A stretch of 64,000 nt of DNA, from assembly GCA_031425235.1 (NCBI GenBank), contig JANPIZ010000004.1, positions 66,251 through 130,250 on the forward strand, given 5' to 3'. A model generated the notes under the pieces. That model searched no databases, had not been told where the DNA came from, and was given only the letters and a program-made list of their open reading frames with translations. Shown here one piece after another: positions 18,564 to 32,485 of the stretch. A program made the position numbers and the translations under genes. The stretch is from Candidatus Nomurabacteria bacterium (GTDB lineage Bacteria; Patescibacteriota; Minisyncoccia; Phycocordibacterales; UBA9973). How positions within the stretch are numbered: the stretch's first letter is position 1; every line of letters starts with the position of its first letter.

Positions 18564-20504
18564 TTACTCAGTCACAAGCCCACTACCAACTGGAGCCAGA
18601 TTATCCAGAGAGAGGTCGGTACGCAAAGAGCCTTTTGCTACCCTTAGGTCTACCTTAGCAAAATCATCACGCCCGGTCAAAACTGCATCATTGATAATAA
18701 CAGCGAGATTATTTATTTGTGAGAAAAGTGGAGTAAGTGCAACTTGGAATGAAACTGTCTTCGCGGCAGTGGTAACACCTGTTGCTTTGAGTATACTGCC
18801 TGCATTCCAAACAACTTCCCGGCTCGAAGAATTAAATACGACATCCTCCGTTGCAGGTGATACAGAACCCACGAAACGCACCCACGTAGGCAACACCGCA
18901 CGCACTTGGGCTTTTGAAATATTGTTTGATGAATTTGAGATGGACCACACGATAGTATACGTGGTTTCCTTTTCAGCCTGTGGAGGTATCGGACCAGTAT
19001 TTTTAAACGCCCCAGAGTAGTACAAGGCTTTGTTTGATAATGCTAAATCAGAAGTTACTTTAATTGTTTTTGTTTCAGAATTATTTAGTTCTTGTGGCTC
19101 ATACCCAGCAACCAATTGCTTGCCCGTTATAGAAACTTCTATATTGATAGCAGGGCTATTAATTATTCCACCAATGGCTGATAAGAGCGGAATAGGATCG
19201 ATCGTAAAATTTACAGATCCAAAATCTCCTGGATTTATTTCAGCAAATTGCTCATTTGAAAATTTATCCCATACGAGAGTTGTTTGAGTTGAATCATATG
19301 TGCCCTGGTCTGCAGTGACAGTTTTTGTATTAAAAGCATTCCCTGTTATTTTTGCTCGGATTTCAAGATCGTTAACTTTTGTATCAAGGTTGTTACCCCA
19401 ATTGATGCTACCGTTAATGAGTGTTTTTGAATTTGTTGAATATTCCCTCTGCAATACGCCATTTATAGCAAGAGTCGCTTCGATAAAAGGCTTTTTAACT
19501 GACACGGTATGAGTGAGAGTGTTGAAAATAACTCCAATGTTTGATTTATCTGTTCCTCCCTGCTCACCACTATACACTCGGAAACTTTTTTGCTCACCGT
19601 CAAATACATCCACCATTCTGCCGGAAATCGAAATAGGGCGACTAACTCCAGGAGCAAGATCACCCATATTCCATATATTATTACCCATAGAGGGCTCAGG
19701 GTTTGCCGATACGAACTGGAACCCAGCGGGGTAATCTACTTTAAGCAACACACCTGAAACTGCTCTTGTAGAATTAAGTGTAGAAGTAATATTCAAGGTA
19801 ATGTTTTGATTTGGGCTCACGATGGCCGGAGCGTCGACGAGTAGATTAAGTGGTGTCGAATTAATAGTAACTTGAAAAGGTTTTTGTTTTACGAAAATCG
19901 CATTTGAACCTTCAACTCGGTATTCTATGGAGACTTTTATATCCCGCACACTTCCTTGTTCTCCAAATAAAATTAACTTTACATTCTCATTGCGCACCGA
20001 CCCGGCAGCAATAGTGCCAAGAGACTCGCGGAAATGCTCGGTTTCAGCAAGCGTATTGTTCGATGCGCCTTTTGGGTATTCAATAACAAGATCAACAAGG
20101 TCAAGTGGAGCATTGTTTCGATTAATAATACCAATAACAAGCGAAAGATCTTCTCCTCCGGCAGTAAACGTGTTCCCTATGATAGAAATATCAATATTGT
20201 TATTTGAAACAGAATTACCTGAGAAAAAGAAAATGTATGCAGCATAACCGATGGTAAGTGTAAAAAAAACTAATGAAAATATAAAAAATTTCTTAAATCG
20301 GGAAGTTTTCAAGAAAAATTTCTCCTGGAAATCTATGCTCTTTGGCTCAACTGTCTTCGTGTCTTCCCATGAATCCCGCATATCAGAAATGTGTGGATGC
20401 GAAAATGTATCATGGTGATCCATGCGTGGTTGATAGTTTTTACTAAAGAGTTTATTTTTTAACTCTTCAATCCGATTTAATTTATTCCTATCGTTAGGCA
20501 ACAT
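18564..20504 (-). CDS. large membrane-anchored extracellular protein (hypothetical)
   Basis: N-terminal cytoplasmic segment, one TM (FFIFSLVFFTLTIGYAAYIFFF), then ~550 aa of beta-rich S/T/N-rich ectodomain. Confidence 0.5.
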   Translation of the reverse strand: MLPNDRNKLNRIEELKNKLFSKNYQPRMDHHDTFSHPHISDMRDSWEDTKTVEPKSIDFQEKFFLKTSRFKKFFIFSLVFFTLTIGYAAYIFFFSGNSVSNNNIDISIIGNTFTAGGEDLSLVIGIINRNNAPLDLVDLVIEYPKGASNNTLAETEHFRESLGTIAAGSVRNENVKLILFGEQGSVRDIKVSIEYRVEGSNAIFVKQKPFQVTINSTPLNLLVDAPAIVSPNQNITLNITSTLNSTRAVSGVLLKVDYPAGFQFVSANPEPSMGNNIWNMGDLAPGVSRPISISGRMVDVFDGEQKSFRVYSGEQGGTDKSNIGVIFNTLTHTVSVKKPFIEATLAINGVLQREYSTNSKTLINGSINWGNNLDTKVNDLEIRAKITGNAFNTKTVTADQGTYDSTQTTLVWDKFSNEQFAEINPGDFGSVNFTIDPIPLLSAIGGIINSPAINIEVSITGKQLVAGYEPQELNNSETKTIKVTSDLALSNKALYYSGAFKNTGPIPPQAEKETTYTIVWSISNSSNNISKAQVRAVLPTWVRFVGSVSPATEDVVFNSSSREVVWNAGSILKATGVTTAAKTVSFQVALTPLFSQINNLAVIINDAVLTGRDDFAKVDLRVAKGSLRTDLSLDNLAPVGSGLVTE

Positions 20505-20591: not shown

Positions 20592-21173
20592 TTACAAGTG
20601 GGTTTCTTTGAGTGCTTTGTTTATTTGTTGCAATACATGATTCCTGGATTTTGAAGCCTCAAAAATCATACTTTCTTCAAACGGTGACCTCACAAGATTT
20701 TGCAACACTGGATTTTCCCCTATATAGCCCAAGTTATTCAATATCCGAAGGACCATAACTGCTTCAAAGCTCCGCAAATCATCTTTATCTTCAATTTTTT
20801 TTAATACCGAAAAACTATGCAGCAAATCAGTAAACAAAGCTTCGTTTGGCTCTACGCCAGCAAGAAGTCGTTTGAGAAGTCGAGTAATATTCGAAACAAT
20901 GTTCAAAGTTTCTGGTCGTTTTATAACTCCTTCAAGTGAATTTGTTTTGGATGCACTCGTAATCCGAAACGTGTTTCGCCCTTGGACAAGATCCACTTTG
21001 ATATAAGAAAAATCTTGAAGTACGTAGCGGAGCTTGGATGACATTTTTCGCACGCCAGACGCAGAGGCGTAGATCATCCCGAGGTCACGAGTAAAAATAA
21101 AATAATATTTGTCAGATTCCCGAAAATTTTTACTTCCCAATATTATCCCTTCTGTATGATAAATGTGATGCAT
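20592..21173 (-). CDS. recO: DNA repair protein RecO
   Basis: N-terminal OB-like segment (TEGIILGSKNFRESDKYYFIFTRDLGMIYASASGVRK) typical of RecO. Confidence 0.65.
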   Translation of the reverse strand: MHHIYHTEGIILGSKNFRESDKYYFIFTRDLGMIYASASGVRKMSSKLRYVLQDFSYIKVDLVQGRNTFRITSASKTNSLEGVIKRPETLNIVSNITRLLKRLLAGVEPNEALFTDLLHSFSVLKKIEDKDDLRSFEAVMVLRILNNLGYIGENPVLQNLVRSPFEESMIFEASKSRNHVLQQINKALKETHL

Positions 21174-21174
21174 T

Positions 21175-21561
21175 TTATTTTAAATTCTCATCAAGGAATT
21201 TTTTTAAGCTTTCCAAATCTTTTTTTTCGTTATCGTAATAATAAGTATCTATACCTACAGATTGTGCAATTTTTACTACTTCAGAATTATGTTCAAAATA
21301 CACTACATTGCTCGAAGCTAGATTAAAATTTTTTAACATTATCTCAAAATATTTTCGATCTGTCTTTTTAGGATTATGTTCAAGTGTAAATACCTCATAA
21401 GGCATTTTATGTAGATTGTAAGTTGGAAACTTTTCACGAGGGGCACCTGTTAGGATAATTTTTTTATTAACGTATGTATCAAGAAGCTCATTAAGAGGTT
21501 GAAATATCTGACCTTCGTCAGAAACAAAACAATTTACAGCATCGACTAAAATTATTTTCAT
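21175..21561 (-). CDS. hypothetical protein (possible HAD-like fold)
   Basis: 128 aa; IILVDAVNCF reminiscent of HAD motif I but degenerate. Confidence 0.3.
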   Translation of the reverse strand: MKIILVDAVNCFVSDEGQIFQPLNELLDTYVNKKIILTGAPREKFPTYNLHKMPYEVFTLEHNPKKTDRKYFEIMLKNFNLASSNVVYFEHNSEVVKIAQSVGIDTYYYDNEKKDLESLKKFLDENLK

Positions 21562-22148
21562 TATTTTAATATCTCGTTAATGACTTGCAGCACTTGGGGC
21601 AGTTCGTTCCATCCAGCGCTACCATTTAAATGCCCACCATTTGGTATCGAGATCAGTTTACAATTTAAATTTTTTGAAAGTTCTTCTGCGTGACCAAATG
21701 GAACCTTATCATCATTGTCCCCATGAATAACGTAAAAGTTTTTACACACTTTCTTTATATACTCAAAATCAAATGGGGTATCTAAAAAATTGTCTATTTT
21801 TCTGATTTTCGATTCTTTATCATGGGGATTAATTAAAGCACAAGGACCAGAAACCAAAATTACTCCACTAATTTTTTTACCTTCAGTTAGAGTTTCAAGG
21901 TATCGCAAAACACCCGGAACTCCGAGTGAATGCCCTATGAGTATTATTTCGTCTTCAGGAAATACATTTACAACATTATCAATTGTCTTTACCCATTCTA
22001 CCTTTTGCGGATTATTAGGTTTTGGCATCGGCAGAGCACAAGCATATATATTCTGTTTTTCTAGTTCACCCATAAGCCAAGGCCTCCAACCACCATTTGG
22101 GCTACCCATAAATCCATGAACCAAAAAAACTTTTTTCATATTACTCAA
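21561..22148 (-). CDS. alpha/beta serine hydrolase (YdeN/RBBP9-like)
   Basis: GHSLG nucleophile elbow; HG...D...H arrangement; 195 aa. Confidence 0.65.
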   Translation of the reverse strand: MSNMKKVFLVHGFMGSPNGGWRPWLMGELEKQNIYACALPMPKPNNPQKVEWVKTIDNVVNVFPEDEIILIGHSLGVPGVLRYLETLTEGKKISGVILVSGPCALINPHDKESKIRKIDNFLDTPFDFEYIKKVCKNFYVIHGDNDDKVPFGHAEELSKNLNCKLISIPNGGHLNGSAGWNELPQVLQVINEILK

Positions 22149-23373
22149 TTATAACCTCTTTTTCCGAGAATTTCATCTTTTCTAAAAAAATATCAAATTC
22201 TTCGTGATATTGCCCCGCATAACTTTGTTGAATGTTATTCACTTCATCAATTGTTTTATCTTTTCTTTTCAAATCTTTTATTCTTTCTAAATATTTCTTT
22301 CCAAAATCTGTTTGAAAAAATTCTCGATATATTTCAGACTGTGAGATGATTTCATCAATTTTTTCTGCTGTCATTTTGTCCCAATTATCTTGAATTTGTT
22401 TTAATAGTTGTGAGTCTTTCTCTACTTTTTTAGCAATTTCCGGATTTGGCTCCTTTAATATAATTTTTCCTCTACGTCCTTTTGGTAAGTATTTTTTTAA
22501 AAAATCTTCAGTTTTCATATACCCCCACACAACTTTATAGGGAGGTATACCAGTTTCTAAAAATTTCTTTACTCGCTCAATATTTATTTGTCCTTTAAAA
22601 TCAATAAATTGGCCCCAAAAGGCTCCCGTCACGTCTTCGACATTATTATCAATAACCTTAAAACCAGCACGTTTAGCGATAGCTGTATTCATAACCCATG
22701 AATGCCCAGCGATTACTTCTACTGAAGAATATGTATCCACTATTTGTTCTGCTAATTTATTAAATGATTCTGTGGGAAAAATACTTGTACTCGCGTCTGC
22801 AAGGATTTTTTTATATAGAGACTCGAGGTGGATAAACATACATCTCGTGTCCTTATTTATTTTATCTTCAGTACTTTCAAAAAAATTATTGTGATTATAT
22901 TCGATATCATAATGTATGAGACCTGCCGTCTGTTTCGGTTCTTCTTGTTCTGTTGTTAGCGTTGAATTTGTCCCTACAATTGTTACAATGGCTTTTGCTT
23001 TTTCAATTTGTAAAAATTCCTCTGTTTTTTGAATCCAATTTTCATGGTCATTTTTATAAAATGAAAGAATTTTATCAGAAAATTCTTTTTCAAGAGAAGC
23101 ATACATTTCGGTTTTCCAGTCTACTCCCTCTGGTAAAGTATTTCTACGATAGTTAATGGCTCGACTTAAAACCGGAGTGTACTTATTTAGAAGTCCTGTG
23201 AAATCGTTTACATCTACGTGTGATTCACCTTGTTCACCGAAAGGCGCAATTTTTTTTAAAAAAATTCTATCCACATATTCTAACTTTATTGCCGTTATTT
23301 TTTCATCAAGTAGCTCAGAGTGTTCCTCTATATTATGCCCTTGTATCGGTTGAGCTATACTTTCTAAATTCAT
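22141..23373 (-). CDS. hypothetical protein
   Basis: 410-aa ORF with no recognisable motifs. Confidence 0.4.
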   Translation of the reverse strand: MNLESIAQPIQGHNIEEHSELLDEKITAIKLEYVDRIFLKKIAPFGEQGESHVDVNDFTGLLNKYTPVLSRAINYRRNTLPEGVDWKTEMYASLEKEFSDKILSFYKNDHENWIQKTEEFLQIEKAKAIVTIVGTNSTLTTEQEEPKQTAGLIHYDIEYNHNNFFESTEDKINKDTRCMFIHLESLYKKILADASTSIFPTESFNKLAEQIVDTYSSVEVIAGHSWVMNTAIAKRAGFKVIDNNVEDVTGAFWGQFIDFKGQINIERVKKFLETGIPPYKVVWGYMKTEDFLKKYLPKGRRGKIILKEPNPEIAKKVEKDSQLLKQIQDNWDKMTAEKIDEIISQSEIYREFFQTDFGKKYLERIKDLKRKDKTIDEVNNIQQSYAGQYHEEFDIFLEKMKFSEKEVIIE

Positions 23374-23388
23374 CCTTATATTTTATCA

Positions 23389-23461
23389 CCCTGTAGTGAA
23401 TTTTGGAAATGCTCAAAGTACGTAAATTTAATAATTTACTTTTCCAAAATCTACTACGGGG
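23389..23461. repeat. intergenic inverted-repeat element (family A) between ileS 3' end and the start of gene 22141..23373
   Basis: ccctgtagtgaattttgg ...~38 nt... ccaaaatctactacgggg. Confidence 0.7.
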
Positions 23462-26400
23462 TATCAATTTTTACCTTAAATACCAAAGAGTCGGCTTTTA
23501 TTTCCCCGCCTGCACTAGCTGTGCTAGAAGCATTGCGGGCAGGTTCACCGTCGTTATTTTTAAAGTGTATGGTAGCAACTTGTACTGTTTTTTTCATATC
23601 CGCTTCGAATTTTTGAATCAATTTTTGTCCGTGCGCATCTGTTGCAAATGTGAGTGCCACTACGTCGCTCGGAGTCAAACCCATCTTTTTCCTCATATCC
23701 TGCAAGCCTCGTACAAGTTCACGATACGTTCCCTCTTCTTTTAATTCATGCGTGATCTTGGTATCGAGGGTAATTTTCGTGATACCTATTTTGATTTTTA
23801 CTAAATATTCAACATGTTTAATATTCAATTCATCTTTAATAATCTCGAGGTATTCTGGAGCCAAACTTTCAGCGATGATTTCCACTTGCTGCAGCGGCTG
23901 GCGAACTTTTATGCCTGCCTTCTGCCTGGCATCGAGACCGAGGGTAACAATATCTCGAGCAGTTTTCATCCGATCGATCACATTTGGTTTAAAAAAGAAG
24001 AAAAACTGAAATTTTTTCTTTGGCCACACGGAAAGATGCACGCTTTCCACATCAGTTTCATTTTTGAGCTGCTGCCAAATATCTTCCGCAGTAAACGGTG
24101 CAAATGGTGCTAATAGTTTTGATAAGGTTTTGAACACAAAATACAACGTTTTCTTTGCCTCAGCATCGCCTTCCTTTATTCGTTCTCGTGAGCGACGCAA
24201 ATACCATGTCGACAGGTCACCTATAAAATCGCGAATCGCACGTACGGGTTCGAGAAGTTTGTAATTATCTAAATGTTCAGTGGTTAATACTGTCAGTTCA
24301 TCAAGTCGAGCCAGTATCCATTGATCAAGTATGTTTGCTGACGTTGGTCTTTCGCTACTCTCTAAACTTGTATCTCGATACAATTCATAAAATGCAAGCA
24401 CGTTGTACAGCAAACTAAACACTTGCTGTGAAACTAACGCAACAGTTTTTTCATCAAAATTTTTCGATTCGCCTGGTTGATTGATCGAGTACATCCATAA
24501 GCGAATCGTGTCGACTCCGTATTTATCCATCATTGTCCAAGGGTCGACAATGTTACCAAGAGACTTTGACATTTTTTTACCTTTTGAATCAAGCAAATGC
24601 CCCAGACAAATTACATTTTTGTACGCCAATCCCCGACCCATAAGCACACCAACAGCATGCAACGTATAAAACCAGCCACGAGTCTGGTCGATGGCTTCGG
24701 AAATATAATCCGCTGGAAAACCAGGGCCCTCGACCCACTTTTTGTTTTCAAAAGGATAATGATCTTGAGCAAACGGCATCGCTCCGGAATCGAACCACAC
24801 ATCCATGACTTCTTTTGTTCGTGCAAGTTCACTACCACATACACAAACGAGCGTTACATTATCAATATATGGTCGATGTAAGTCGAGCTCATAATCTTCA
24901 TTGTGTGGTATGGTAACAAAATCAATTTGCTTATACTGTGCGTTCTTAAATAGAGCATTTTGTTCATTGCCACCCTTCTCCATAACTTCAGAGTGCCTGA
25001 AAAGTCCACCCGTCATCGCGATCGATTCGTCTACATTCAAGCCTTCGAGTACTGCATGCAACATCCAAATAGGTGCACCGTGCGAAATAATAAGAATTTT
25101 TTTATTTTTATGTTTTTCTTCGAGTTCGCAAAAAACATCTCCTATCCTTCTTTTTACATTGAGTAATGATTCACCACCATGGATAGGATTCAAAAATCTT
25201 TCCTTTTCATTTTTGAACATATCTCGATATTCATCCCAGGATTTGCCATTGAATTCTCCAGCGTCGAGTTCACCCAGCCTTTTATCGAAGACAATTTTAT
25301 TGTCTTCGATGCCTAATGATTTTTTTAGAATTTCCAATGTATCGCGTGTACGAACAAACGGAGACACCAATACAAAATCGAATTGAAGCCCTTCCTCTTT
25401 CATTTTTTTAGCTGAAGTTTCAACTTGTTGCTCTCCGACATTAGTGAGATGATCTTCATTCTCAACTCGCGATGATACCACGCCGTGTGGGCCACCCTTC
25501 ACATTACTTTCTGATTGCCCATGTCGCATGAGATAGTATTCGTTACCCGACTTTTTTGTTTTCTTTTTTAAATCTTCCACTCCCCCGACAACTTCTCTAG
25601 CATCACACGAATAACATTGCCATACCGGTAGAGGTGTGCCCCAATACCGCTCACGGGATATTGCCCAATCTTTTATTTCCCGCAACCATTCACCAAAGCG
25701 ACCATTTCTAATGTGGCTTGGCTCCCAGTTTATTTTTTGATTTTGGGAAATGAGTTCACTTTTAATTTTTCGATCTGACATCCGTATATACCATGAATCA
25801 CGTGCGTAGTAGATAAGCGCCGTTTTGCAACGCCAGCAATGTGGATATGAGTGTTTGTAGTTTTCTTGTTTGAAAAATAAATTTCTTTTCTTTAAGTCTT
25901 CTATGATATCGACTGCCAAAGTAGGTTTACCGTCGGTGTTAGTTTCTTTTACAAACCGGGCTTCCAAAAACCCTGTTCCTGAAACAAAGTTCCCTTCAGG
26001 GTTCACGAGATGATATTTAGGCAAGCCAATCTTTGTGCCAAGCACAAAGTCATCTTGACCATACATAACTGCAGTATGCACCACACCAGTACCATCTTCG
26101 ATGTTTACAAAGTCAGCAACATAAACTTTGAACATTTTTTCCGTAGATTCCCCTTTTTTCTCGAGCTGTTCTTTCAAAAATGGAAACAGTGGTTCGTATT
26201 CAAAACTGAGCAAATCCTTGCCTTTCATTTCTTCTGTAATTTCATATTCTCCACCGAGTATTTCAATTCTTTCTTTTGCTAATATTAAAAACTCATTTTC
26301 TTTTTTGACTTGTACGTATTCAATATCCTCACCTACAGCAAGAGCTACATTCCCGGGTAAAGTCCACGGAGTTGTCGTCCAAGCAAGTATGTATGTATTG

Positions 26401-27050
26401 TCCTCATTTTTTACTTTGAATTTTACATATACCGACAAATCTTTTACATCTTCGTATCCTTGTGCGAGTTCGTGCGAAGAAAGTGCGGTGCCACACCGTG
26501 GACACCATGGCACCACTTTATAGTCTTTATATAAAAGTTTCTGTTCATTAATTTTTGATACCACATTCCACAGTGACTCAATATATGTGTTATGATACGT
26601 CACATATGGATTGTCTTTATCTACCCAGTAGCCTACTCGGTCGCGATATTTATACCACACATCGACGTGTTTCCAGACACTTTCTTTGCATTTTTGATTA
26701 AATTCCGCGATACCAAAACTCTCAATTTCTCGTTTAGATTTGAGTCCAAGTTCTTTTTCGACGAGTAGCTCTACTGGCAAGCCATGGGTATCCCAGCCTC
26801 CCTTTCGGCGAACATGATACCCACGCATTGTTTTATATCGTGGAATCGCATCCTTGAATGATTGTGGAATGAGGTGATGTATACCTGGCATACCGTTTGC
26901 GGTTGGCGGTCCATCGTAAAATACAAATTCTTTTTTACCTTCAGTATTTTTTAAAGTTTTAGAAAAAATATTGTTCTCCTGCCAAAATTTTAAAACCTTT
27001 TCCTCGCGAAGAGCTTGCTCACTTTTTTGTTTTTTTTCTTGTTCGTCCAT
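23454..27050 (-). CDS. ileS: isoleucyl-tRNA synthetase with embedded histidine-phosphatase (PGAM-like) domain and a C-terminal mini-element insertion
   Basis: PTANGMPGIHH (HIGH region), KMSKSLGN, CP1 editing region; residues ~500-700 (YYLMRHGQSESN...SPFVRTRDT...LIISHGAPI) match the RHG histidine-phosphatase superfamily; [14 protein letters not shown] near the C-terminus. Confidence 0.9.
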   Translation of the reverse strand: MDEQEKKQKSEQALREEKVLKFWQENNIFSKTLKNTEGKKEFVFYDGPPTANGMPGIHHLIPQSFKDAIPRYKTMRGYHVRRKGGWDTHGLPVELLVEKELGLKSKREIESFGIAEFNQKCKESVWKHVDVWYKYRDRVGYWVDKDNPYVTYHNTYIESLWNVVSKINEQKLLYKDYKVVPWCPRCGTALSSHELAQGYEDVKDLSVYVKFKVKNEDNTYILAWTTTPWTLPGNVALAVGEDIEYVQVKKENEFLILAKERIEILGGEYEITEEMKGKDLLSFEYEPLFPFLKEQLEKKGESTEKMFKVYVADFVNIEDGTGVVHTAVMYGQDDFVLGTKIGLPKYHLVNPEGNFVSGTGFLEARFVKETNTDGKPTLAVDIIEDLKKRNLFFKQENYKHSYPHCWRCKTALIYYARDSWYIRMSDRKIKSELISQNQKINWEPSHIRNGRFGEWLREIKDWAISRERYWGTPLPVWQCYSCDAREVVGGVEDLKKKTKKSGNEYYLMRHGQSESNVKGGPHGVVSSRVENEDHLTNVGEQQVETSAKKMKEEGLQFDFVLVSPFVRTRDTLEILKKSLGIEDNKIVFDKRLGELDAGEFNGKSWDEYRDMFKNEKERFLNPIHGGESLLNVKRRIGDVFCELEEKHKNKKILIISHGAPIWMLHAVLEGLNVDESIAMTGGLFRHSEVMEKGGNEQNALFKNAQYKQIDFVTIPHNEDYELDLHRPYIDNVTLVCVCGSELARTKEVMDVWFDSGAMPFAQDHYPFENKKWVEGPGFPADYISEAIDQTRGWFYTLHAVGVLMGRGLAYKNVICLGHLLDSKGKKMSKSLGNIVDPWTMMDKYGVDTIRLWMYSINQPGESKNFDEKTVALVSQQVFSLLYNVLAFYELYRDTSLESSERPTSANILDQWILARLDELTVLTTEHLDNYKLLEPVRAIRDFIGDLSTWYLRRSRERIKEGDAEAKKTLYFVFKTLSKLLAPFAPFTAEDIWQQLKNETDVESVHLSVWPKKKFQFFFFFKPNVIDRMKTARDIVTLGLDARQKAGIKVRQPLQQVEIIAESLAPEYLEIIKDELNIKHVEYLVKIKIGITKITLDTKITHELKEEGTYRELVRGLQDMRKKMGLTPSDVVALTFATDAHGQKLIQKFEADMKKTVQVATIHFKNNDGEPARNASSTASAGGEIKADSLVFKVKIDTP
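23504..23543 (-). repeat. palindromic mini-element copy in frame in ileS
   Basis: Reverse complement is identical to the recA copy (cctgcccgcaatgcttctagcacagctagtgcaggcgggg). Confidence 0.85.
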
Positions 27051-27639: not shown

Positions 27640-28065
27640 TTAATTATAAGCTCCAGATTGTGATTGTAATATGATTTTGCGAACTTCCTCGATAGCTTCT
27701 TCGGTGGTCATGGGGTTTTTAACCTTTTTTTCTACATAATCTTTTAAGTTTGCCACTAGTGCATCTGCGACCATCACTAATTCTCTTTCGTTTGCATTAT
27801 ATTTAAATTTTACTTCTTGGAGCCTCTCCGTCAGTGTACGCAAAAATTCCTTTGGACAACTTTTTATAATTTCATTTAAACCAAACTCAACAACTTTATG
27901 TTCCATTTTCTTCATTACGGTTCCGGGTTCTATGTGATTATTAAAAACCCGACTTGTGGCTATATTGTCCGCTGATTCAACGATCACCTTCTTTGATTCC
28001 ATTGGGTTTTCTTTGCTCATGCGGTTAATTATACACCTAGCTAACAATAAAAGGTATTCTTGCAT
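27640..28065 (-). CDS. hypothetical protein
   Basis: 141-aa ORF; likely start MSKENPMESKK. Confidence 0.4.
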   Translation of the reverse strand: MQEYLLLLARCIINRMSKENPMESKKVIVESADNIATSRVFNNHIEPGTVMKKMEHKVVEFGLNEIIKSCPKEFLRTLTERLQEVKFKYNANERELVMVADALVANLKDYVEKKVKNPMTTEEAIEEVRKIILQSQSGAYN

Positions 28066-28142: not shown

Positions 28143-28610
28143 CTATATAAATGGTACCGTCCCTGTGCCGGTACTACTACTTTGCATGCCGGCAAAACCT
28201 TTTGGCTCAGAATTTTGTTTTTCAAAAGCCTTTTGCCTTTTTTTTAATTTGACGAGATTTGGTTCAATTAAAACCTGAACCTTGTCTTCATTTTTCATTC
28301 TTTTCAATTTTAAGTTGACCCACTCCAACTTGTCATCAGGGGTGGATTTAAGTAAATATTCAAAAGAAAGCTTTACCCGTGCCAAGATTATTCTCTCAGC
28401 CTCTTCCAAAAGCTCCATTCGCTGAACAGGGCTCCCGACGTATTTTTCTTTCATTTTCGAATATTTTTCCCCAAGACTGAGGCAATCTTTTGTGATTGTT
28501 TCAGTAATGACTTCATGTGGTGGTTGAATTTTTTTCATTTTTTCTCCTAAGAACGAAATTAACCCGACTATCGAGCTGTGTTCTATAAATATGAATACCA
28601 TAAATTTCAT
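28143..28610 (-). CDS. hypothetical protein
   Basis: 155-aa ORF; likely real start MKKIQPPHEV; followed by GC hairpin terminator 28070-28110. Confidence 0.4.
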   Translation of the reverse strand: MKFMVFIFIEHSSIVGLISFLGEKMKKIQPPHEVITETITKDCLSLGEKYSKMKEKYVGSPVQRMELLEEAERIILARVKLSFEYLLKSTPDDKLEWVNLKLKRMKNEDKVQVLIEPNLVKLKKRQKAFEKQNSEPKGFAGMQSSSTGTGTVPFI

Positions 28611-30276: not shown

Positions 30277-32058
30277 CTACATTTTTTCTGGAGCTTGGAT
30301 ACCGAGCAGATGAAGCCCTGTTTTCATTATAAACGAAAATGCGTAGGTAAGAGTTATTTTATACGCTGAACTTTTGTCATCTTTACTCACAATGGTGTTA
30401 TTCGCATAAAAACTGTTAAACGATCTTGCAACTTCTATCAAATAATTCGCTATGTAGTGAGGCTCATATTCTCTCGCAGATCGTTCTACAACTTCATCAA
30501 ATGTATACAGCATTTTTTCAATTTCAAAAATTTCTGCTGGAAAGGCATGCGGGTCAGGGGAAATATTTTCTTTCTGTGACTTTTCTAATATAGATTTTGC
30601 TCGAGCATATGAATACTGAAGGTATGGACCCGAGTCTCCTTCAAATGAAATTGATTTGTCAAAATCGTATGCGATGTCCCCTCCAGTTGATTGTTTTAAG
30701 ATGGAGTATTTGAGCGCAGCGATACCGACGACTTCCGCGACTTTCGTTTTCTTTCCCCCGCCTGCACCAGCTATGCTGGAAGCATTGCGGGCAGGTTCAT
30801 CAGTCCATCTATCCTTCATTCGCTCTTCTACTAAATTAATAGTATCCCGAATCAAAGACTCGCCAGTAACCACATTCCCCTTTCGAGACGACATTTTACC
30901 CGAAGCCAAACGCATCATCCCGTGCGTAATGTGTTTCATTTTTGATTCGTATTCTGGATGAATAATGGAAATTGCTTTCGCGACTACCTTCATGTATTCC
31001 ATTTGTTCATTTGCAGTTACCACAATACTCAAATTCATTTCAGGCAACTTGGCAAACTTTTCCTCAGTTAATCCTAGTTCTTTTGTCTCGTAGGTAGGTA
31101 ATCCTTTCGAAGTCATGAAAACCCTGGTATGAAGTTTTGGGTCATATTTTTCCGCCTTGAAAACAACTGCTCCGTCGGAATCTTCAAAAATCATCTTGCT
31201 CCCAAGTGGGTCGATAGCTTTATTCATATTATCCTCGACCAGTTTTTGACCAAGCGGCGCTACGTAACTTTCCAAGAAATAATATTCAAATTTTGTGCCG
31301 AGTATTGTATACAAATCTTCAAACGCATTCATGGTCGCCTCAAAACCCCACGCATATATTTCATTTATCTTTTCATCACTCTTATCGTAAAGTTTTTTAT
31401 TTATTTCATCTATTTCGGCTTTCGCGTTTGGGTCATCTTCGTACAAGGCAGCGCCAGAAACATATGCCTCGCCGATGCGTGCCGCTTGGTCCGTGTGCGT
31501 ACCTGACCTGTCCTCAAGTCCTTTGTTTTTCAAAAGGCCGTATATCGCCTTGGCCACATGAAGGCCGACATCGCCTTGGTAGTTTGCGCGTGACACTACT
31601 GCTCCCGAATGTTCTAAAATAGTAGCTACTGATTCGCCAATCGCATTTGTCATCAAGTGACCTATGTGAAAAGGCTTGAATGGATTTGGATCAGTGTACT
31701 CTACCATTATTTTTTGACCTGAGAGAGTTTTGTTTTTACCAACCTCGTACCCTTTATTTACAATTTCTTCTACACTATGAGCAAAAAATTCACGTGATAA
31801 ATAGAAGTTTATAAACCCGGCCCCGGCGACCTCAATTTTTTCTATATGTGTATCTGTATTCAGTCGGAGCATTTCCGTAACTATTTTTTCAGCGAAATCT
31901 TTTGGATTCATCTGCACGCCCTTGGCTACAGCTAAAGCAATATTCGTAGAATAATCTCCCATTTTTAAATCAGCTGGATGTTCAAGAGTTATAGTACTCA
32001 CCTCTATGTTGAGATTTTGAAGTGCGTCTTGTATTAATTTTTTTATATTAGCGTGCAT
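30277..32058 (-). CDS. argS: arginyl-tRNA synthetase with in-frame mini-element insertion
   Basis: PFHIGHLMTN HIGH motif, MSSRKGN (KMSKS-like), C-terminal DALR-type helical domain; PARNASSIAGAGGG insertion; start probably MHANIKK (ORF extends to 32112). Confidence 0.85.
   Translation of the reverse strand: MHANIKKLIQDALQNLNIEVSTITLEHPADLKMGDYSTNIALAVAKGVQMNPKDFAEKIVTEMLRLNTDTHIEKIEVAGAGFINFYLSREFFAHSVEEIVNKGYEVGKNKTLSGQKIMVEYTDPNPFKPFHIGHLMTNAIGESVATILEHSGAVVSRANYQGDVGLHVAKAIYGLLKNKGLEDRSGTHTDQAARIGEAYVSGAALYEDDPNAKAEIDEINKKLYDKSDEKINEIYAWGFEATMNAFEDLYTILGTKFEYYFLESYVAPLGQKLVEDNMNKAIDPLGSKMIFEDSDGAVVFKAEKYDPKLHTRVFMTSKGLPTYETKELGLTEEKFAKLPEMNLSIVVTANEQMEYMKVVAKAISIIHPEYESKMKHITHGMMRLASGKMSSRKGNVVTGESLIRDTINLVEERMKDRWTDEPARNASSIAGAGGGKKTKVAEVVGIAALKYSILKQSTGGDIAYDFDKSISFEGDSGPYLQYSYARAKSILEKSQKENISPDPHAFPAEIFEIEKMLYTFDEVVERSAREYEPHYIANYLIEVARSFNSFYANNTIVSKDDKSSAYKITLTYAFSFIMKTGLHLLGIQAPEKM
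30755..30795 (-). repeat. palindromic mini-element copy in frame in argS
   Basis: Reverse complement cctgcccgcaatgcttccagcatagctggtgcaggcggggg; central stem ccagc-ata-gctgg with compensatory changes. Confidence 0.85.
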
Positions 32059-32062
32059 AAAT

Positions 32063-32485
32063 TTATTTTCTTCCCGTACTCCCAAATTTACCTTCACCAC
32101 GAGCTGAGTCACTTAATACCTCGACTTCTTCCAGCTCGCCGATGACTATAGGTATTATAACAAGTTGAGAAACTTTATCACCTTCTTCAAATGTATAAGG
32201 TTCGCTCGAAAGGTTTACTAGTAAGGTATTGTATTCGCCTCTATATCCTGCATCAAACACACCACCCATGTGTGTAAGCCCAGCTTTAGAGATACTACCT
32301 TTATCCATAATGATTCCTGCATAACCTTCAGGGAATTCTAACGCAAATCCATGCCAGAAGCGATAATGTTCCCCTGGCCCCACCGTCACTGTTTCCATAG
32401 CATACATATCCATACCCACATCACCCGGATGATGGTAAGTCGGCAACTTGGCTCCATCTTTTAATTTTTTTATTCTGATTTTCAT
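32063..32485 (-). CDS. dut: dUTP diphosphatase
   Basis: Conserved dUTPase motifs (AGxD, GVFDAGYRGE, KFGSTGRK-type motif V). Confidence 0.85.
   Translation of the reverse strand: MKIRIKKLKDGAKLPTYHHPGDVGMDMYAMETVTVGPGEHYRFWHGFALEFPEGYAGIIMDKGSISKAGLTHMGGVFDAGYRGEYNTLLVNLSSEPYTFEEGDKVSQLVIIPIVIGELEEVEVLSDSARGEGKFGSTGRK

What the first reader, a model, noticed from the sequence alone, without database searches (positions are those of the whole stretch)
24950..25550. Isoleucyl-tRNA synthetase carries an embedded histidine-phosphatase (PGAM-like) domain
Residues ~500-700 of the 1198-aa IleRS (YYLMRHGQSESN ... SPFVRTRDT ... RLGELDAGEFNGKSW ... HGGES ... LIISHGAPI) carry the RHG catalytic signature and downstream motifs of the phosphoglycerate-mutase/histidine-phosphatase superfamily. 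The domain is inserted between the WAISRERYWGTPLPVW/CYSCDA zinc-knuckle region and the ...DVWFDSGAMPF segment of the catalytic core. IleRS is otherwise complete (HIGH, KMSKS, editing CP1). A phosphatase module embedded in an aminoacyl-tRNA synthetase catalytic domain is unusual. It could hydrolyse a nucleotide or aminoacyl-adenylate-related substrate, or it may be a parasitic domain insertion.
Basis: seen in the sequence. Interest (0 to 1): 0.6.

Follow-up and report, generated by a model that had tools for sequence, protein, structure and literature searches.

The report
Phosphatase domain built into IleRS
The enzyme that loads isoleucine onto tRNA in this tiny-genome (Patescibacteria) bacterium carries a complete, apparently working phosphatase inside its catalytic domain, and the same phosphatase family travels with this and related tRNA enzymes in hundreds of species, so the two activities are probably linked in a way nobody has described.

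Summary
Window 23454-27050 (-) encodes a 1198-aa type-2 IleRS (TIGR00392, 876 bits). A 218-residue branch-1 histidine phosphatase (res 498-715; Pfam His_Phos_1, E=1.8e-30) replaces a 2-residue loop inside the Cys4 zinc knuckle.

The insert is not a one-off and not parasitic:
- All 120 best full-length database relatives carry it.
- A single 9-residue pattern found it in up to 450 species genomes, all named ones Patescibacteria.
- In 65 intact ORFs the catalytic residues R509, H510, N516, R567, R635 and H657 are invariant.
- The AlphaFold model of the region (pLDDT 89) matches small-molecule phosphatases (PspA, GpgP, PhoE, CobC).

New here: the same phosphatase subfamily also exists as a ~190-aa separate gene. 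It abuts an insert-less ileS in 6 of 11 contexts examined, in the same argS-ileS-recO synteny. It is also inserted at other sites, and in multiple copies, in IleRS and ValRS, and it is fused to the t6A enzyme TsaC. The partners seen are all adenylate-forming tRNA enzymes.

Best reading: a bifunctional IleRS whose phosphatase acts on a small terminal-phosphate compound tied to adenylation (PPi or AMP). The substrate is inferred, not shown. I found no literature description. It is a new variant of a known kind.

The parts
23454..27050 (-). ileS ORF, 1198 aa: type-2 IleRS with an embedded phosphatase
   Evidence: ORF list. TIGR00392 scores 875.8 bits against a cutoff of 621.4. Best PDB match is P. 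megaterium IleRS2, 8c8w, 806 bits. A 100% identical protein, P0121, is in NCBI on a 173,835-bp contig.
25560..27050 (-). IleRS residues 1-497: first Rossmann half, CP1/editing domain, CP2, and the first half of the zinc knuckle
   Evidence: Aligns to 8c8w residues 10-477. Pfam tRNA-synt_1 covers 19-499.
26874..26885 (-). Class-I signature motif in its swapped form G-I-H-H (GXHH)
   Evidence: Translation. Identical to the motif in the 8c8w GVHH mutant alignment. The meaning of GXHH is taken from PMC10485003.
25839..26459 (-). Editing (CP1) domain, residues 198-404
   Evidence: Matches the isolated T. thermophilus IleRS editing domains 1wk8 (E=3.2e-27) and 1wny. TTTPWT and GTGVVHTA..DDF are visible in the translation.
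25605..25616 (-). CxxC (C479, C482): first half of the Cys4 zinc knuckle that brackets the insertion
   Evidence: Translation reads CYSC. The four Cys co-occur in 29 of 65 homologues and are absent together in the rest.
24906..25559 (-). Inserted branch-1 histidine phosphatase domain, residues 498-715
   Evidence: Pfam His_Phos_1 E=1.8e-30. Limits come from the PDB alignment. The AF2 fragment model has pLDDT 89.3 and pTM 0.86. Foldseek best hits are PspA 4ij6/4ij5, GpgP 4pz9, HFP 9mmh, PhoE 1h2e and CobC, with TM 0.66-0.78 normalised to the target. It scores 236.9 bits against my subfamily HMM and is the only copy in the 64 kb.
25536..25544 (-). N503-x-Y505: subfamily signature just before strand beta1
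   Evidence: N is present in 65/65 and Y in 64/65 fused copies. N is present in 32/33 and Y in 29/33 stand-alone copies.
25518..25526 (-). R509-H510-G511: phosphate-binding Arg and the nucleophilic His
   Evidence: R is 65/65, H 65/65 and G 64/65 across species-level ORFs. Also invariant in the 26-sequence alignment A1.
25350..25352 (-). R567: second phosphate-pocket Arg
   Evidence: 65/65 conserved.
25269..25271 (-). E594: putative general acid/base
   Evidence: 61 E plus 4 D in 65 sequences. The role is assigned by homology to E82/E83/E89 of PspA, PhoE and dPGM (established knowledge of the superfamily).
25080..25082 (-). H657: second active-site His
   Evidence: 65/65 conserved.
24957..25010 (-). 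Window-specific extra loop in the phosphatase (res 681-698), probably disordered
   Evidence: Gapped in 61-64 of the 65 fused sequences (all or nearly all of the other 64) and in 32-33 of 33 stand-alone copies. pLDDT is below 50 in the fragment model, residues 216-229. This insert is the longest of the 65, at 218 aa against 194-210.
24837..24845 (-). CxC (C736, C738): second half of the zinc knuckle
   Evidence: Translation reads CVC. Co-varies with C479/C482.
23454..24905 (-). IleRS residues 716-1198: second Rossmann half, KMSKS, anticodon-binding and C-terminal domains
   Evidence: Aligns to 8c8w 480-847 and 932-1008. Pfam Anticodon_1 covers 909-1054 and DUF5915 covers 1092-1167.
24561..24575 (-). 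KMSKS loop motif
   Evidence: Translation. KMSKS is found in 44/65 homologues and conservative variants in the rest.
30277..32112 (-). argS: upstream synteny anchor
   Evidence: Pfam Arg_tRNA_synt_N, tRNA-synt_1d and DALR_1. ArgRS lies near ileS in 45/81 related loci. It lies directly upstream of the stand-alone phosphatase gene in L081, L085, L087, L088 and the P0306 contig, and further upstream with one or more genes between in L084 and L089.
20592..21173 (-). recO: downstream synteny anchor
   Evidence: Pfam RecO_N and RecO_C. Present in 59/81 related loci and downstream of the insert-less ileS in L081, L084, L085 and L089.
18564..20504 (-). DUF11/CLIPPER-type large protein: downstream synteny anchor
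   Evidence: Pfam DUF11. Present in 60/81 related loci and in L081, L084 and L085.

Best explanation
This is the IleRS (type 2, GXHH variant) of a Patescibacteria/Parcubacteria-type bacterium, presumably its housekeeping copy. A complete, catalytically competent branch-1 histidine phosphatase of the small PhoE/PspA/GpgP-like kind is inserted into the loop of the Cys4 zinc-knuckle hairpin. That hairpin lies between strand 'TPLPVW' and strand 'DVWFDSG' of the Rossmann-fold domain. It is probably the element called CP3 in the yeast IleRS nomenclature; that assignment is my inference.

The protein is a two-enzyme polypeptide. The IleRS core should carry out normal Ile activation, transfer and editing. 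The insert should hydrolyse a terminal phosphate through a phospho-His510 intermediate. R509, R567, H657 and N516 would hold the phosphate, and E594 would act as the acid/base.

The phosphatase belongs to a Patescibacteria subfamily (signature N-x-Y-x3-RHG) that is genetically tied to adenylate-forming tRNA enzymes:
- It is a separate gene abutting an insert-less ileS in relatives.
- It is inserted at several different sites, and in up to four copies, in IleRS and ValRS.
- It is fused to the t6A enzyme TsaC.

I therefore think its substrate is a small terminal-phosphate compound connected with the adenylation reaction. The most parsimonious candidate is the shared by-product pyrophosphate, and AMP is the second candidate. 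Local hydrolysis would pull activation forward or clear product.

Shown: the architecture, the conservation, the fold, the phyletic spread and the genomic association. Inferred: catalytic activity (about 0.85), functional coupling to adenylation (about 0.6) and the PPi/AMP substrate (about 0.3).
For: Architecture and limits of the insert.

Intact catalytic set under purifying selection:
- R509, H510, N516, R567, R635 and H657 are invariant in 65 of 65 intact ORFs from different species. E594 is E in 61 and D in 4; E627 is E in 64.
- Mean pairwise identity of the insert is 41.6%. That is comparable with the anticodon-binding domain (45.8%) and above the C-terminal domain (36.5%).

Fold:
- The AF2 fragment model has pLDDT 89.3 and pTM 0.86, with junction residues above 90.
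- The best Foldseek hits are all small-molecule phosphatases: PspA, GpgP, HFP, PhoE and CobC.

Spread:
- 453 genomic stretches matched one 9-residue pattern and 450 were confirmed by tblastn. The best 80 cover the whole insert, and all named ones are Patescibacteria.
- 64 of those 80 loci have an uninterrupted ORF of 1096-1392 codons complete at both ends within the locus.
- All 120 best full-length clusters carry PF00300 together with the IleRS domains.

Vertical inheritance: argS, recO, DUF11 and glyS synteny occurs in 45-60 of 81 loci.

Association in other forms:
- Exhaustive phmmer with the insert alone returned 96 IleRS-joined, 2 ValRS-joined, 1 TsaC-joined and 51 partner-less proteins among the best 150, and no other partner type.
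- About 35 of the partner-less hits are stand-alone proteins of ~185-215 aa, 33-40% identical to the insert.
- In 5 of 11 contexts the stand-alone gene ends 1-17 nt before an insert-less ileS. In one more the insert-less ileS is adjacent but convergent, and in two more argS lies upstream and the contig ends.
- Each locus holds exactly one copy, either fused or stand-alone.
- IleRS P0347 and P0272 carry 2-3 copies at other sites. ValRS P0324 carries 4 copies, and P0507 is a ValRS by its NCBIfam cutoff. P0283 is TsaC (TIGR00057 above cutoff) plus His_Phos.

Precedent for PPi hydrolysis in the superfamily, in branch 2 only: PMC7926622.
Against: - No activity has been measured and the substrate is unknown.
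- The closest solved relatives act on phosphoserine, glucosyl-3-phosphoglycerate, a riboflavin intermediate and alpha-ribazole phosphate, not on PPi.
- I know of no branch-1 member that is a pyrophosphatase. The only precedent I found is a branch-2 enzyme.
- The insert evolves faster than the core. Its identity is a flat ~41% both within and between IleRS clades. This fits a domain whose surface is not constrained by a conserved macromolecular partner.
- Adjacency to ileS could be operon inertia that merely made fusion easy. 3 of 11 stand-alone genes lie elsewhere.
- The best-150 list is ranked by similarity to an IleRS insert, so it is biased towards IleRS partners.
- I could not determine where the phosphatase active site lies relative to the synthetic site. 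The full-length AF2 model was poor (pTM 0.50) and no coordinates are available.
- I could not test whether these genomes lack a conventional pyrophosphatase.
- I could not test whether this is the genome's only IleRS, because only 64 kb is held.
Confidence: 0.5

Rival explanations
1. Hitch-hiking metabolic phosphatase. The domain is an ordinary broad-specificity or pathway phosphatase (PhoE/PspA-like, acting on for example phosphoserine, a sugar phosphate, or nucleotides for salvage). Its gene happened to sit next to ileS and was later absorbed into a tolerant surface loop. The two activities share a polypeptide for expression or gene economy only, with no mechanistic link.
For: - All the best structural and sequence relatives are stand-alone small-molecule phosphatases.
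- JGI annotates the stand-alone relatives as 'broad specificity phosphatase PhoE'.
- Insert identity is flat at ~41% regardless of IleRS clade, and the median pI of the insert is 6.0. Neither suggests a constrained interface or RNA binding.
- 3 of 11 stand-alone genes are not next to ileS.
- Small-genome operons often mix unrelated genes (general knowledge).
Against: - Simple read-through of an upstream gene would give an N-terminal fusion, not an internal insertion.
- Internal insertions occur at three or more sites in IleRS and three or more in ValRS, sometimes in 2-4 copies, and there is a separate fusion to TsaC.
- No partner other than these adenylate-forming tRNA enzymes appears among the best 150 relatives.
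- Adjacency to ileS is kept across three very different IleRS types, which are 35-63% identical.
Confidence: 0.28
2. tRNA-end healing. The phosphatase removes a 2'- or 3'-phosphate from the 3' end of tRNA-Ile, possibly after an HD-domain cyclic phosphodiesterase step. Damaged tRNA could then be recharged by the same enzyme.
For: - A minority of relatives add a C-terminal HD phosphohydrolase domain to the same IleRS: P0144, P0154, P0159 and P0224, and L015 and L058, which is 2 of 65 species.
- The E. coli CCA-adding enzyme pairs a tRNA enzyme with an HD phosphatase/cyclic phosphodiesterase (my own knowledge).
- One stand-alone gene lies near rtcB and tgt, though on the opposite strand.
Against: - TsaC, another fusion partner, does not bind tRNA ends. 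It makes threonylcarbamoyl-AMP (established knowledge).
- The insert is not basic, with a median pI of 6.0.
- No RNA-end histidine phosphatase turned up in the literature search.
- The HD domain matches no specific subfamily.
Confidence: 0.08
3. Regulatory or protein-directed module. The domain dephosphorylates IleRS itself or another protein (like SixA, PGAM5 or Sts-1, for example reversing a HipA-type kinase). Alternatively it senses a phospho-metabolite and tunes aminoacylation allosterically.
For: - The superfamily contains protein phosphatases (established knowledge; SixA is a weak NCBIfam match at 41.7 bits, below its cutoff of 74.5).
- The junction residues are confidently modelled (pLDDT above 90), which suggests a fixed rather than floppy attachment.
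Against: - The closest relatives by sequence and by fold are small-molecule enzymes.
- No kinase partner appears in the conserved neighbourhood.
- Multi-copy insertions (4 in one ValRS) are hard to explain by regulation.
Confidence: 0.07
4. Selfish, decaying or purely structural insertion. This would be a parasitic domain (intein-like or otherwise mobile) or a dead remnant with no catalytic role. A further variant of this rival is that the domain is the cell's glycolytic dPGM.
For: - Repeated insertion at many sites and in tandem copies looks superficially like a mobile element.
- GC content is slightly lower in the insert (0.35-0.38) than in the rest of the gene (0.39-0.45).
Against: - The catalytic residues are invariant in 65 species and kept in every copy of the multi-copy proteins.
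- There is no Cys/Ser/Thr nucleophile at the N junction. The 'HN' at the C junction is not conserved and is not followed by Cys/Ser/Thr.
- The whole insert is a His_Phos fold with no Hint or endonuclease part.
- The synteny is conserved and vertical.
- The dPGM equivalogs score far below their cutoffs: 69 against 225 and 56 against 316.
Confidence: 0.03

Closest known systems
Type-2 IleRS, e.g. Priestia megaterium IleRS2 (PDB 8C8U/8C8V; GXHH mutant 8C8W)
   Same: The domain order, the zinc knuckle, KMSKS, the editing domain and the type-2 C-terminal domains are the same. The match scores 806 bits over the whole core. The window enzyme naturally carries the GXHH form of the HIGH motif. PMC10485003 links that form to mupirocin hyper-resistance.
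   Different: The solved enzyme has 2 residues where the window protein has a 218-residue phosphatase. No IleRS paper I could search mentions a phosphatase.
Small branch-1 histidine phosphatases: PspA (4IJ5), GpgP Rv2419c (4PZ9), HFP (9MMH), PhoE (1H2E), CobC (3HJG)
   Same: The fold matches, with TM 0.66-0.78 normalised to the target. The RHG / R / E / H catalytic set and the ~200-aa size with a short cap are shared.
   Different: Sequence identity is only 18-25%. No NCBIfam equivalog cutoff is reached. The subfamily has its own N-x-Y signature. Here the domain is embedded in, or genetically tied to, an aaRS.
Bifunctional RNase H / acid phosphatase (Rv2228c type; NCBIfam PRK07238)
   Same: A His_Phos_1 domain is joined to a nucleic-acid enzyme. 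It is the best NCBIfam phosphatase match to the insert, at 76.9 bits.
   Different: The score is far below the cutoff of 326. That protein is an end-to-end fusion, not an internal insertion, and the partner enzyme is unrelated.
IleRS with an N-acetyltransferase domain (NCBIfam NF040702, ileS_w_GNAT)
   Same: It is another IleRS that has acquired an accessory catalytic domain (name and hit).
   Different: The accessory domain is different. I did not determine where the GNAT sits. The window protein scores 324 against a cutoff of 1999, so it is not a member.
Sua5 (TsaC catalytic domain plus C-terminal SUA5 domain)
   Same: In relative P0283 the TsaC/YrdC domain (TIGR00057, 146.8 against a cutoff of 123.2) is followed by a C-terminal extra domain, as in Sua5 (the Sua5 architecture is from my own knowledge).
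   Different: The extra domain is this histidine phosphatase, not the SUA5 domain. P0283 is not in the window.
E. coli CCA-adding enzyme with HD phosphohydrolase domain
   Same: A tRNA enzyme carries a phosphohydrolase activity (my own knowledge, not tested here).
   Different: The fold (HD) and the placement differ. It is relevant only to the minority of relatives that add an HD domain.

Membership tests
Histidine phosphatase superfamily, branch 1 (Pfam PF00300) | Significant match to the family HMM above the gathering score | tested here: met
   106.5 bits against a cutoff of 21.7, E=1.8e-30, residues 506-676.
Histidine phosphatase superfamily, branch 1 (Pfam PF00300) | RHG motif with nucleophilic His, plus a second Arg, a second His and an acidic proton donor | tested here: met
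   R509-H510-G511, R567, H657 and E594 are present. They are invariant or nearly invariant in 65 species.
Histidine phosphatase superfamily, branch 1 (Pfam PF00300) | Alpha/beta fold of the superfamily | tested here: met
   The AF2 model has pLDDT 89.3. There are 281 Foldseek PDB hits at E<=0.001, and all 50 hits listed are members of the superfamily.
Histidine phosphatase superfamily, branch 1 (Pfam PF00300) | Phosphatase or mutase activity through a phospho-His intermediate | not testable with these tools
   This needs an enzyme assay with an H510A control.
Cofactor-dependent phosphoglycerate mutase (dPGM) | Score at or above the NCBIfam equivalog cutoffs | tested here: not met
   dPGM_arch scores 69.2 against 225, PRK01295 scores 55.9 against 316, and GpmB scores 43.9 against 261.
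Alpha-ribazole phosphatase CobC / phosphoserine phosphatase PspA / SixA | Score at or above the NCBIfam equivalog cutoffs | tested here: not met
   CobC scores 69.5 against 162.9, PspA scores 59.5 against 350, and SixA scores 41.7 against 74.5.
Isoleucyl-tRNA synthetase (TIGR00392), type 2 | Equivalog HMM above cutoff, and closer to IleRS2 than to IleRS1 | tested here: met
   875.8 bits against a cutoff of 621.4. IleRS2 structures score 750-806 bits, against 254-337 for the lower-scoring PDB IleRS entries (8c9f, 8c9e, S. aureus 1ffy, 8wnf, 8wni), which I take to be IleRS1.
Isoleucyl-tRNA synthetase (TIGR00392), type 2 | Class-I signature motifs HIGH and KMSKS, and the CP1 editing domain | tested here: met
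   KMSKS is present. HIGH is present as the GXHH variant, known only in IleRS2. The editing domain matches 1wk8.
Isoleucyl-tRNA synthetase (TIGR00392), type 2 | Aminoacylation activity; sole IleRS of the genome | not testable with these tools
   Only 64 kb of the genome is held. No second ileS lies in the window (searches cover only the phosphatase and the ORF list).
Mupirocin-resistance IleRS MupA/MupB | NCBIfam exception-model cutoff | tested here: not met
   772.8 and 762.4 bits against a cutoff of 1900.
Intein / mobile protein-splicing element | N-terminal Cys/Ser/Thr, C-terminal His-Asn followed by Cys/Ser/Thr, and a Hint fold | tested here: not met
   The junctions read ...KKSGNxY... and ...PHN(E/G/D/A)xYELD. 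Neither position is a conserved nucleophile. The whole insert is a His_Phos fold.
Proposed 'aaRS-associated histidine phosphatase' subfamily (defined here) | N-x-Y/F-x3-RHG signature, ~190-aa short-cap domain, joined to or adjacent to IleRS, ValRS or TsaC | tested here: met
   The window insert scores 236.9 bits against the HMM built from 65 fused and 35 stand-alone members, though it is itself one of the 65 fused training sequences. The partner census is, and the contexts are.

The most novel reading that the evidence does not exclude
A dedicated phosphohydrolase partner for adenylate-forming tRNA enzymes. This Patescibacteria histidine-phosphatase subfamily would work hand in hand with IleRS, ValRS and TsaC, whether inserted, fused or encoded next door. 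It would destroy a terminal-phosphate by-product or inhibitor of the adenylation step at its source, either pyrophosphate or AMP. That would be a new class of accessory activity for aminoacyl-tRNA synthetases. It could be an adaptation of PPi-economy, minimal-genome cells.
Probability: 0.3. Interest if true: 0.8.

Novelty: new variant of a known kind. Interest (0 to 1): 0.62.

Why it matters
Aminoacyl-tRNA synthetases are among the best-studied enzymes. Their known add-ons are editing, tRNA-binding or signalling domains, not phosphatases. This case differs in four ways:
- A catalytically intact phosphatase sits inside the Rossmann-fold domain of an IleRS that is presumably the cell's essential copy.
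- It is conserved across hundreds of uncultivated species.
- It recurs at other sites in IleRS and ValRS.
- It is fused to TsaC, and it is encoded immediately upstream of ileS where it is not fused.

That pattern (a Rosetta-stone fusion plus gene neighbourhood) is the classic signature of a functional partnership, and it can be tested directly with recombinant protein.

If the phosphatase clears PPi or AMP, it would show a new way of driving adenylation in organisms with minimal genomes. If it does not, it is still a clean natural example of how a neighbouring gene can become an internal domain of an essential enzyme.

There is also a practical annotation issue. Public records label fragments of this gene variously as 'class I tRNA ligase family protein' or 'histidine phosphatase family protein, partial'.

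Tried and rejected
- **Exact look-up of the window protein** found nothing. The later homology search showed a 100% identical NCBI protein, P0121.
- **First attempt to scan genomes** with the 26-sequence alignment failed for lack of a conserved stretch. A 7-sequence alignment worked.
- **Intein or mobile-element reading** was rejected on junction residues and fold.
- **dPGM, CobC, PspA and SixA identity** was rejected on NCBIfam cutoffs.
- **Full-length AlphaFold model** (84-sequence MSA, all sequences at least 63% identical) gave pLDDT 73 and pTM 0.50, with the Rossmann core poorly modelled. It says nothing about how the phosphatase faces the synthetic site.
- **Single versus multiple fusion events** is unresolved:
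  - A BLOSUM NJ tree put 33 of 35 stand-alone proteins outside the fused group.
  - A bootstrapped NJ did not support a clean split, at 1/200.
  - Insert-less IleRS L081 and L084 are as close to the HxGH-type fused cores (58-63%) as those are to each other.
- **A 'split IleRS' reading** of the ~650-750-aa database proteins that begin with the phosphatase was rejected. Their starts are heterogeneous (M of MRHG, contig edges, an internal Met), as expected from fragmentary gene calls.
- **Gene neighbourhood of the fused loci** shows only housekeeping genes and no kinase, ligase or nucleotidase partner.
- **The HD domain of some relatives** matched no specific subfamily.
- **Literature searches** for IleRS plus histidine phosphatase, aaRS insertions in Patescibacteria, RNA-end histidine phosphatases, and pyrophosphatase status of CPR bacteria gave nothing decisive.

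Full report
**1. The observation**

The region lies inside one long ORF, 23454..27050 on the minus strand, 1198 codons.
- Pfam finds the class-I synthetase catalytic domain in two pieces, a His_Phos_1 domain at residues 506-676 (E=1.8e-30, 106.5 bits, cutoff 21.7), the anticodon-binding domain and DUF5915.
- NCBIfam calls the protein isoleucine--tRNA ligase (TIGR00392, 875.8 bits, cutoff 621.4). The next-best hits are the MupA/MupB type-2 models.
- The best solved relatives are Priestia megaterium IleRS2 structures (8c8w, 806 bits). The alignment breaks cleanly: query 12-497 matches chain 10-477 and query 716-1080 matches chain 480-847.
- So 218 residues (498-715; window 24906-25559) replace a two-residue loop.
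- That loop lies between a CxxC pair (C479, C482) and a CxC pair (C736, C738). It is therefore inside a four-cysteine zinc knuckle, located between the 'RYWGTPLPVW' strand and the 'DVWFDSGAMPF' strand.
- The one correction is that the HIGH motif reads G-I-H-H.

**2. Is the phosphatase intact?**

I aligned 26 inserts from database fragments. R509, H510, R567, H657 and R635 were invariant, and G511, N516, E594 and E627 were nearly so.

A genome scan then provided uninterrupted ORFs of 1096-1392 codons, complete at both ends within the locus, from 64 different species genomes. Together with the window that gives 65 sequences. In those 65:
- R509, H510, N516, R567, R635 and H657 are conserved in 65 of 65.
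- E594 is E in 61 and D in 4.
- E627 is E in 64.

Mean pairwise identity is 41.6% for the insert, 45.8% for the anticodon-binding domain, 36.5% for the C-terminal domain and 54-58% for the Rossmann halves.

An AlphaFold model of residues 470-760, built with 32 aligned homologues, has mean pLDDT 89.3 and pTM 0.86. Apart from the last residues of the modelled fragment, the only low-confidence part is a loop specific to this window (res 685-698). Foldseek against the PDB returns 281 hits at E<=0.001, and every hit listed is a member of the histidine phosphatase superfamily. The best are PspA, the mycobacterial hydrolases/GpgP, the riboflavin-pathway HFP, PhoE and CobC, with target-normalised TM 0.66-0.78.

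By sequence, no NCBIfam equivalog is reached, so it is not a dPGM, CobC, PspA or SixA orthologue. I conclude that it is a folded, catalytically equipped, short-cap phosphatase under purifying selection. Activity itself is inferred.

**3. How widespread is it?**

- A search with the insert plus short flanks found dozens of fragments carrying both PF00133 and PF00300. Nearly all named ones are Patescibacteria.
- A search with the full protein found 8000 relatives. All 120 listed (61-100% identity, 1130-1384 aa) carry PF00300 together with the IleRS domains. They include an identical NCBI protein and GW2011/CG10 Nomurabacteria entries annotated simply as isoleucine--tRNA ligase.
- A scan of one genome per species with the single peptide pattern YELDLHRPY gave 453 stretches, 450 confirmed by tblastn.
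- The 80 best cover the whole insert. They come from Paceibacterota, Nomura-, Kaiser-, Taylor-, Zambryski-, Wolfe- and Lloydbacteria, RAAC4_OD1_1 and similar genomes.
- I can only vouch for full coverage of the insert in those 80.
- The neighbourhood is conserved: recO in 59, a DUF11/CLIPPER-type protein in 60, GlyRS in 46 and ArgRS in 45 of 81 loci. The window has the same order.
- This is vertical inheritance in a housekeeping context.

The fused IleRS cores fall into three clades. Identity is 58-62% within a clade and 45-50% between clades. One clade is mostly GXHH and one mostly HYGH. The insert, in contrast, is about 41% identical both within and between clades. It has diverged to saturation outside its constrained positions.

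**4. The new finding: the association exists in other forms**

An exhaustive phmmer search of 1.84 billion cluster representatives with the insert alone gave 6462 hits at E<=0.001 and 635 at E<=1e-10. Among the best 150, 96 are joined to IleRS, 2 to ValRS, 1 to TsaC, and 51 have no partner sequence. About 35 of the partner-less ones are complete proteins of ~185-215 aa with their own start and stop. They are 33-40% identical to the insert and share an N-x-Y signature just before RHG.

I could look at the genomic context of eleven of them:
- In five, the phosphatase gene ends 1-17 nt before an ileS gene of 931-984 codons with no insert (one is cut by the contig end). The arrangement is the same argS - X - ileS - recO - CLIPPER - glyS synteny as the window.
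- In one, the order is argS-phosphatase followed by a convergent insert-less ileS.
- In two, argS lies upstream and the contig ends.
- In three, the context is unrelated.

These partner IleRSs are of very different types. Two are HYGH enzymes up to 58-63% identical to the fused HxGH clade. Two are a 'GPITANN..GVHH' type only 35-39% identical to anything else here. In them the insertion site is a short loop, for example CDKC..GSIKELEKLSSVKVTDLHKHFID..CSC.

Every locus I hold has exactly one copy, fused or free. A search from a free copy found 318 further clusters. They are named 'histidine phosphatase family protein [Patescibacteria group bacterium]', Staskawiczbacteria, or PhoE.

**5. More architectures**

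- P0347 is a full-length IleRS (TIGR00392, 816 bits; six members of 1419 aa on contigs up to 1.06 Mb). Its zinc knuckle is uninterrupted. It has one phosphatase after 'WFESGSMPYA' and a second at the start of the anticodon-binding domain.
- P0272 (IleRS) has copies after the second Cys pair, after 'SMPYA...', and at the anticodon-binding-domain site.
- P0337 combines the window-type site with the anticodon-binding-domain site.
- P0324 is a ValRS fragment with four copies.
- P0507 is a ValRS by both equivalog cutoffs, with one copy after 'DTWFSSG'.
- P0283 is L-threonylcarbamoyladenylate synthase (TIGR00057 above cutoff) with the phosphatase at its C-terminus.

All copies keep the catalytic residues. 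The partners share one chemistry: ATP plus an amino-acid-derived acid gives an acyl-adenylate plus pyrophosphate.

**6. Mechanism**

Shown:
- the architecture;
- the intact catalytic set;
- the fold;
- the spread;
- the genetic linkage in several independent arrangements.

Inferred from the well-established mechanism of the superfamily: His510 attacks a terminal phosphate. R509, R567, H657 and N516 bind it. E594 protonates the leaving group. The phospho-histidine is then hydrolysed.

Inferred from the partner set: the substrate is connected with adenylation. Pyrophosphate is the only product common to IleRS, ValRS and TsaC at their own active sites. AMP is the common end product of the pathways. 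I rate functional coupling at about 0.6 and PPi/AMP at about 0.3.

Points against:
- The nearest characterised relatives use other substrates.
- The only pyrophosphatase precedent I found is a branch-2 enzyme.
- The insert's surface evolves freely.
- The census of partners is biased by ranking on similarity to an IleRS insert.
- I could not obtain the geometry of the two active sites.
- I could not obtain the pyrophosphatase gene content of these genomes.

**7. Rivals**

- The main rival is a hitch-hiking metabolic phosphatase with no mechanistic link (0.28).
- tRNA-end healing (0.08) is suggested by relatives that add a C-terminal HD domain. It fits poorly with TsaC and with the acidic insert.
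- A protein-phosphatase or sensor role (0.07) cannot be excluded.
- A selfish or dead insertion, or a glycolytic dPGM (0.03), is contradicted by conservation, junctions and HMM cutoffs.

**8. Comparison with what is known, and novelty**

The core is an ordinary IleRS2 of the GXHH kind (PMC10485003). The insert is an ordinary member of PF00300. What I did not find described is the combination.
- There were no hits for IleRS plus histidine phosphatase.
- The 2023 structural paper and a 2026 preprint that annotated domain architectures of 96,219 IleRS sequences do not contain the word 'phosphatase'.
- The proteins have been in public databases for years under generic names.

I class it as a new variant of a known kind, namely an aaRS with an accessory catalytic domain. 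The added point is that the accessory domain defines a subfamily dedicated to adenylate-forming tRNA enzymes. Interest is 0.62. It would be surprising to a synthetase specialist and is directly testable, but it does not bear on a long-standing open question.

Noticed in passing
window 26874-26885 (-), IleRS residues 56-59: The class-I HIGH motif is G-I-H-H. This is the swapped GXHH form that PMC10485003 links to mupirocin hyper-resistance in IleRS2. Among 65 insert-bearing homologues, 21 have GIHH, 26 have HYGH and the rest have other variants. The insertion therefore spans both motif types.
   Followed up: partly
relatives P0144, P0154, P0159, P0224; loci L015 and L058 (C-terminal ~190 aa): Some insert-bearing IleRSs (4 of the 120 best clusters; 2 of 65 species) also carry a C-terminal HD phosphohydrolase domain in place of part of the last domain. 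That gives two phosphohydrolase modules on one synthetase. The HD domain matches no specific NCBIfam or PDB subfamily.
   Followed up: partly
relatives P0347, P0272, P0337 (IleRS); P0324, P0366/P0507 (ValRS); P0283 (TsaC): The same phosphatase subfamily is inserted at other sites of IleRS, in 2-3 copies, and in ValRS, in up to 4 copies in one fragment. It is also fused to the C-terminus of L-threonylcarbamoyladenylate synthase. The organisms are not named in the sources.
   Followed up: partly
loci L081, L084, L085, L089, L092 (and L087, L088): A stand-alone ~190-aa phosphatase gene lies 1-17 nt upstream of an insert-less ileS, in the same argS-ileS-recO-CLIPPER-glyS synteny as the window. This is the unfused counterpart of the window architecture.
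   Followed up: yes
loci L085 2709-5663 and L089 4779-7646: The insert-less IleRS next to the free phosphatase in these loci is a distinct type ('GPITANN.MGVHH...', GXHH motif). It is only 35-39% identical to the other IleRSs examined here.
   Followed up: no
window 24957-25010 and 25485-25496 (-): The window's phosphatase has two small private additions: an 18-residue loop (res 681-698, low pLDDT) and 'GGPH' (res 519-522). Both are absent from nearly all other fused and free copies.
   Followed up: no
window 23991-24011 (-), IleRS residues 1014-1020: There is a run 'FQFFFFF', encoded by an A-rich tract on the plus strand (AAAAAAGAAGAAAAACTGAAA). It lies in a poorly conserved linker and is a possible slippage-prone tract.
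   Followed up: no
window 24950-25400: GC content of the DNA encoding the insert (0.35-0.38) is a little lower than that of the rest of ileS (0.39-0.45). This fits weaker constraint rather than recent foreign origin, given the conservation of the insert across species.
   Followed up: no
window 22141-23373 (-), 27640-28065 (-), 28143-28610 (-): Three ORFs flanking ileS (410, 141 and 155 aa) have no Pfam match. The 410-aa ORF overlaps the next gene (a Ser_hydrolase family protein, 21561-22148) by 8 nt.
   Followed up: no
whole window 1-64000: The 64 kb contains no tRNA gene and no Rfam family at gathering threshold.
   Followed up: no
database proteins P0003, P0017, P0034, P0091, P0245, P0285, P0327 and others: Many public gene calls for this IleRS family are fragments. 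Some start at the Met of 'MRHG', and some are named 'histidine phosphatase family protein, partial'. The architecture is therefore inconsistently annotated.
   Followed up: partly
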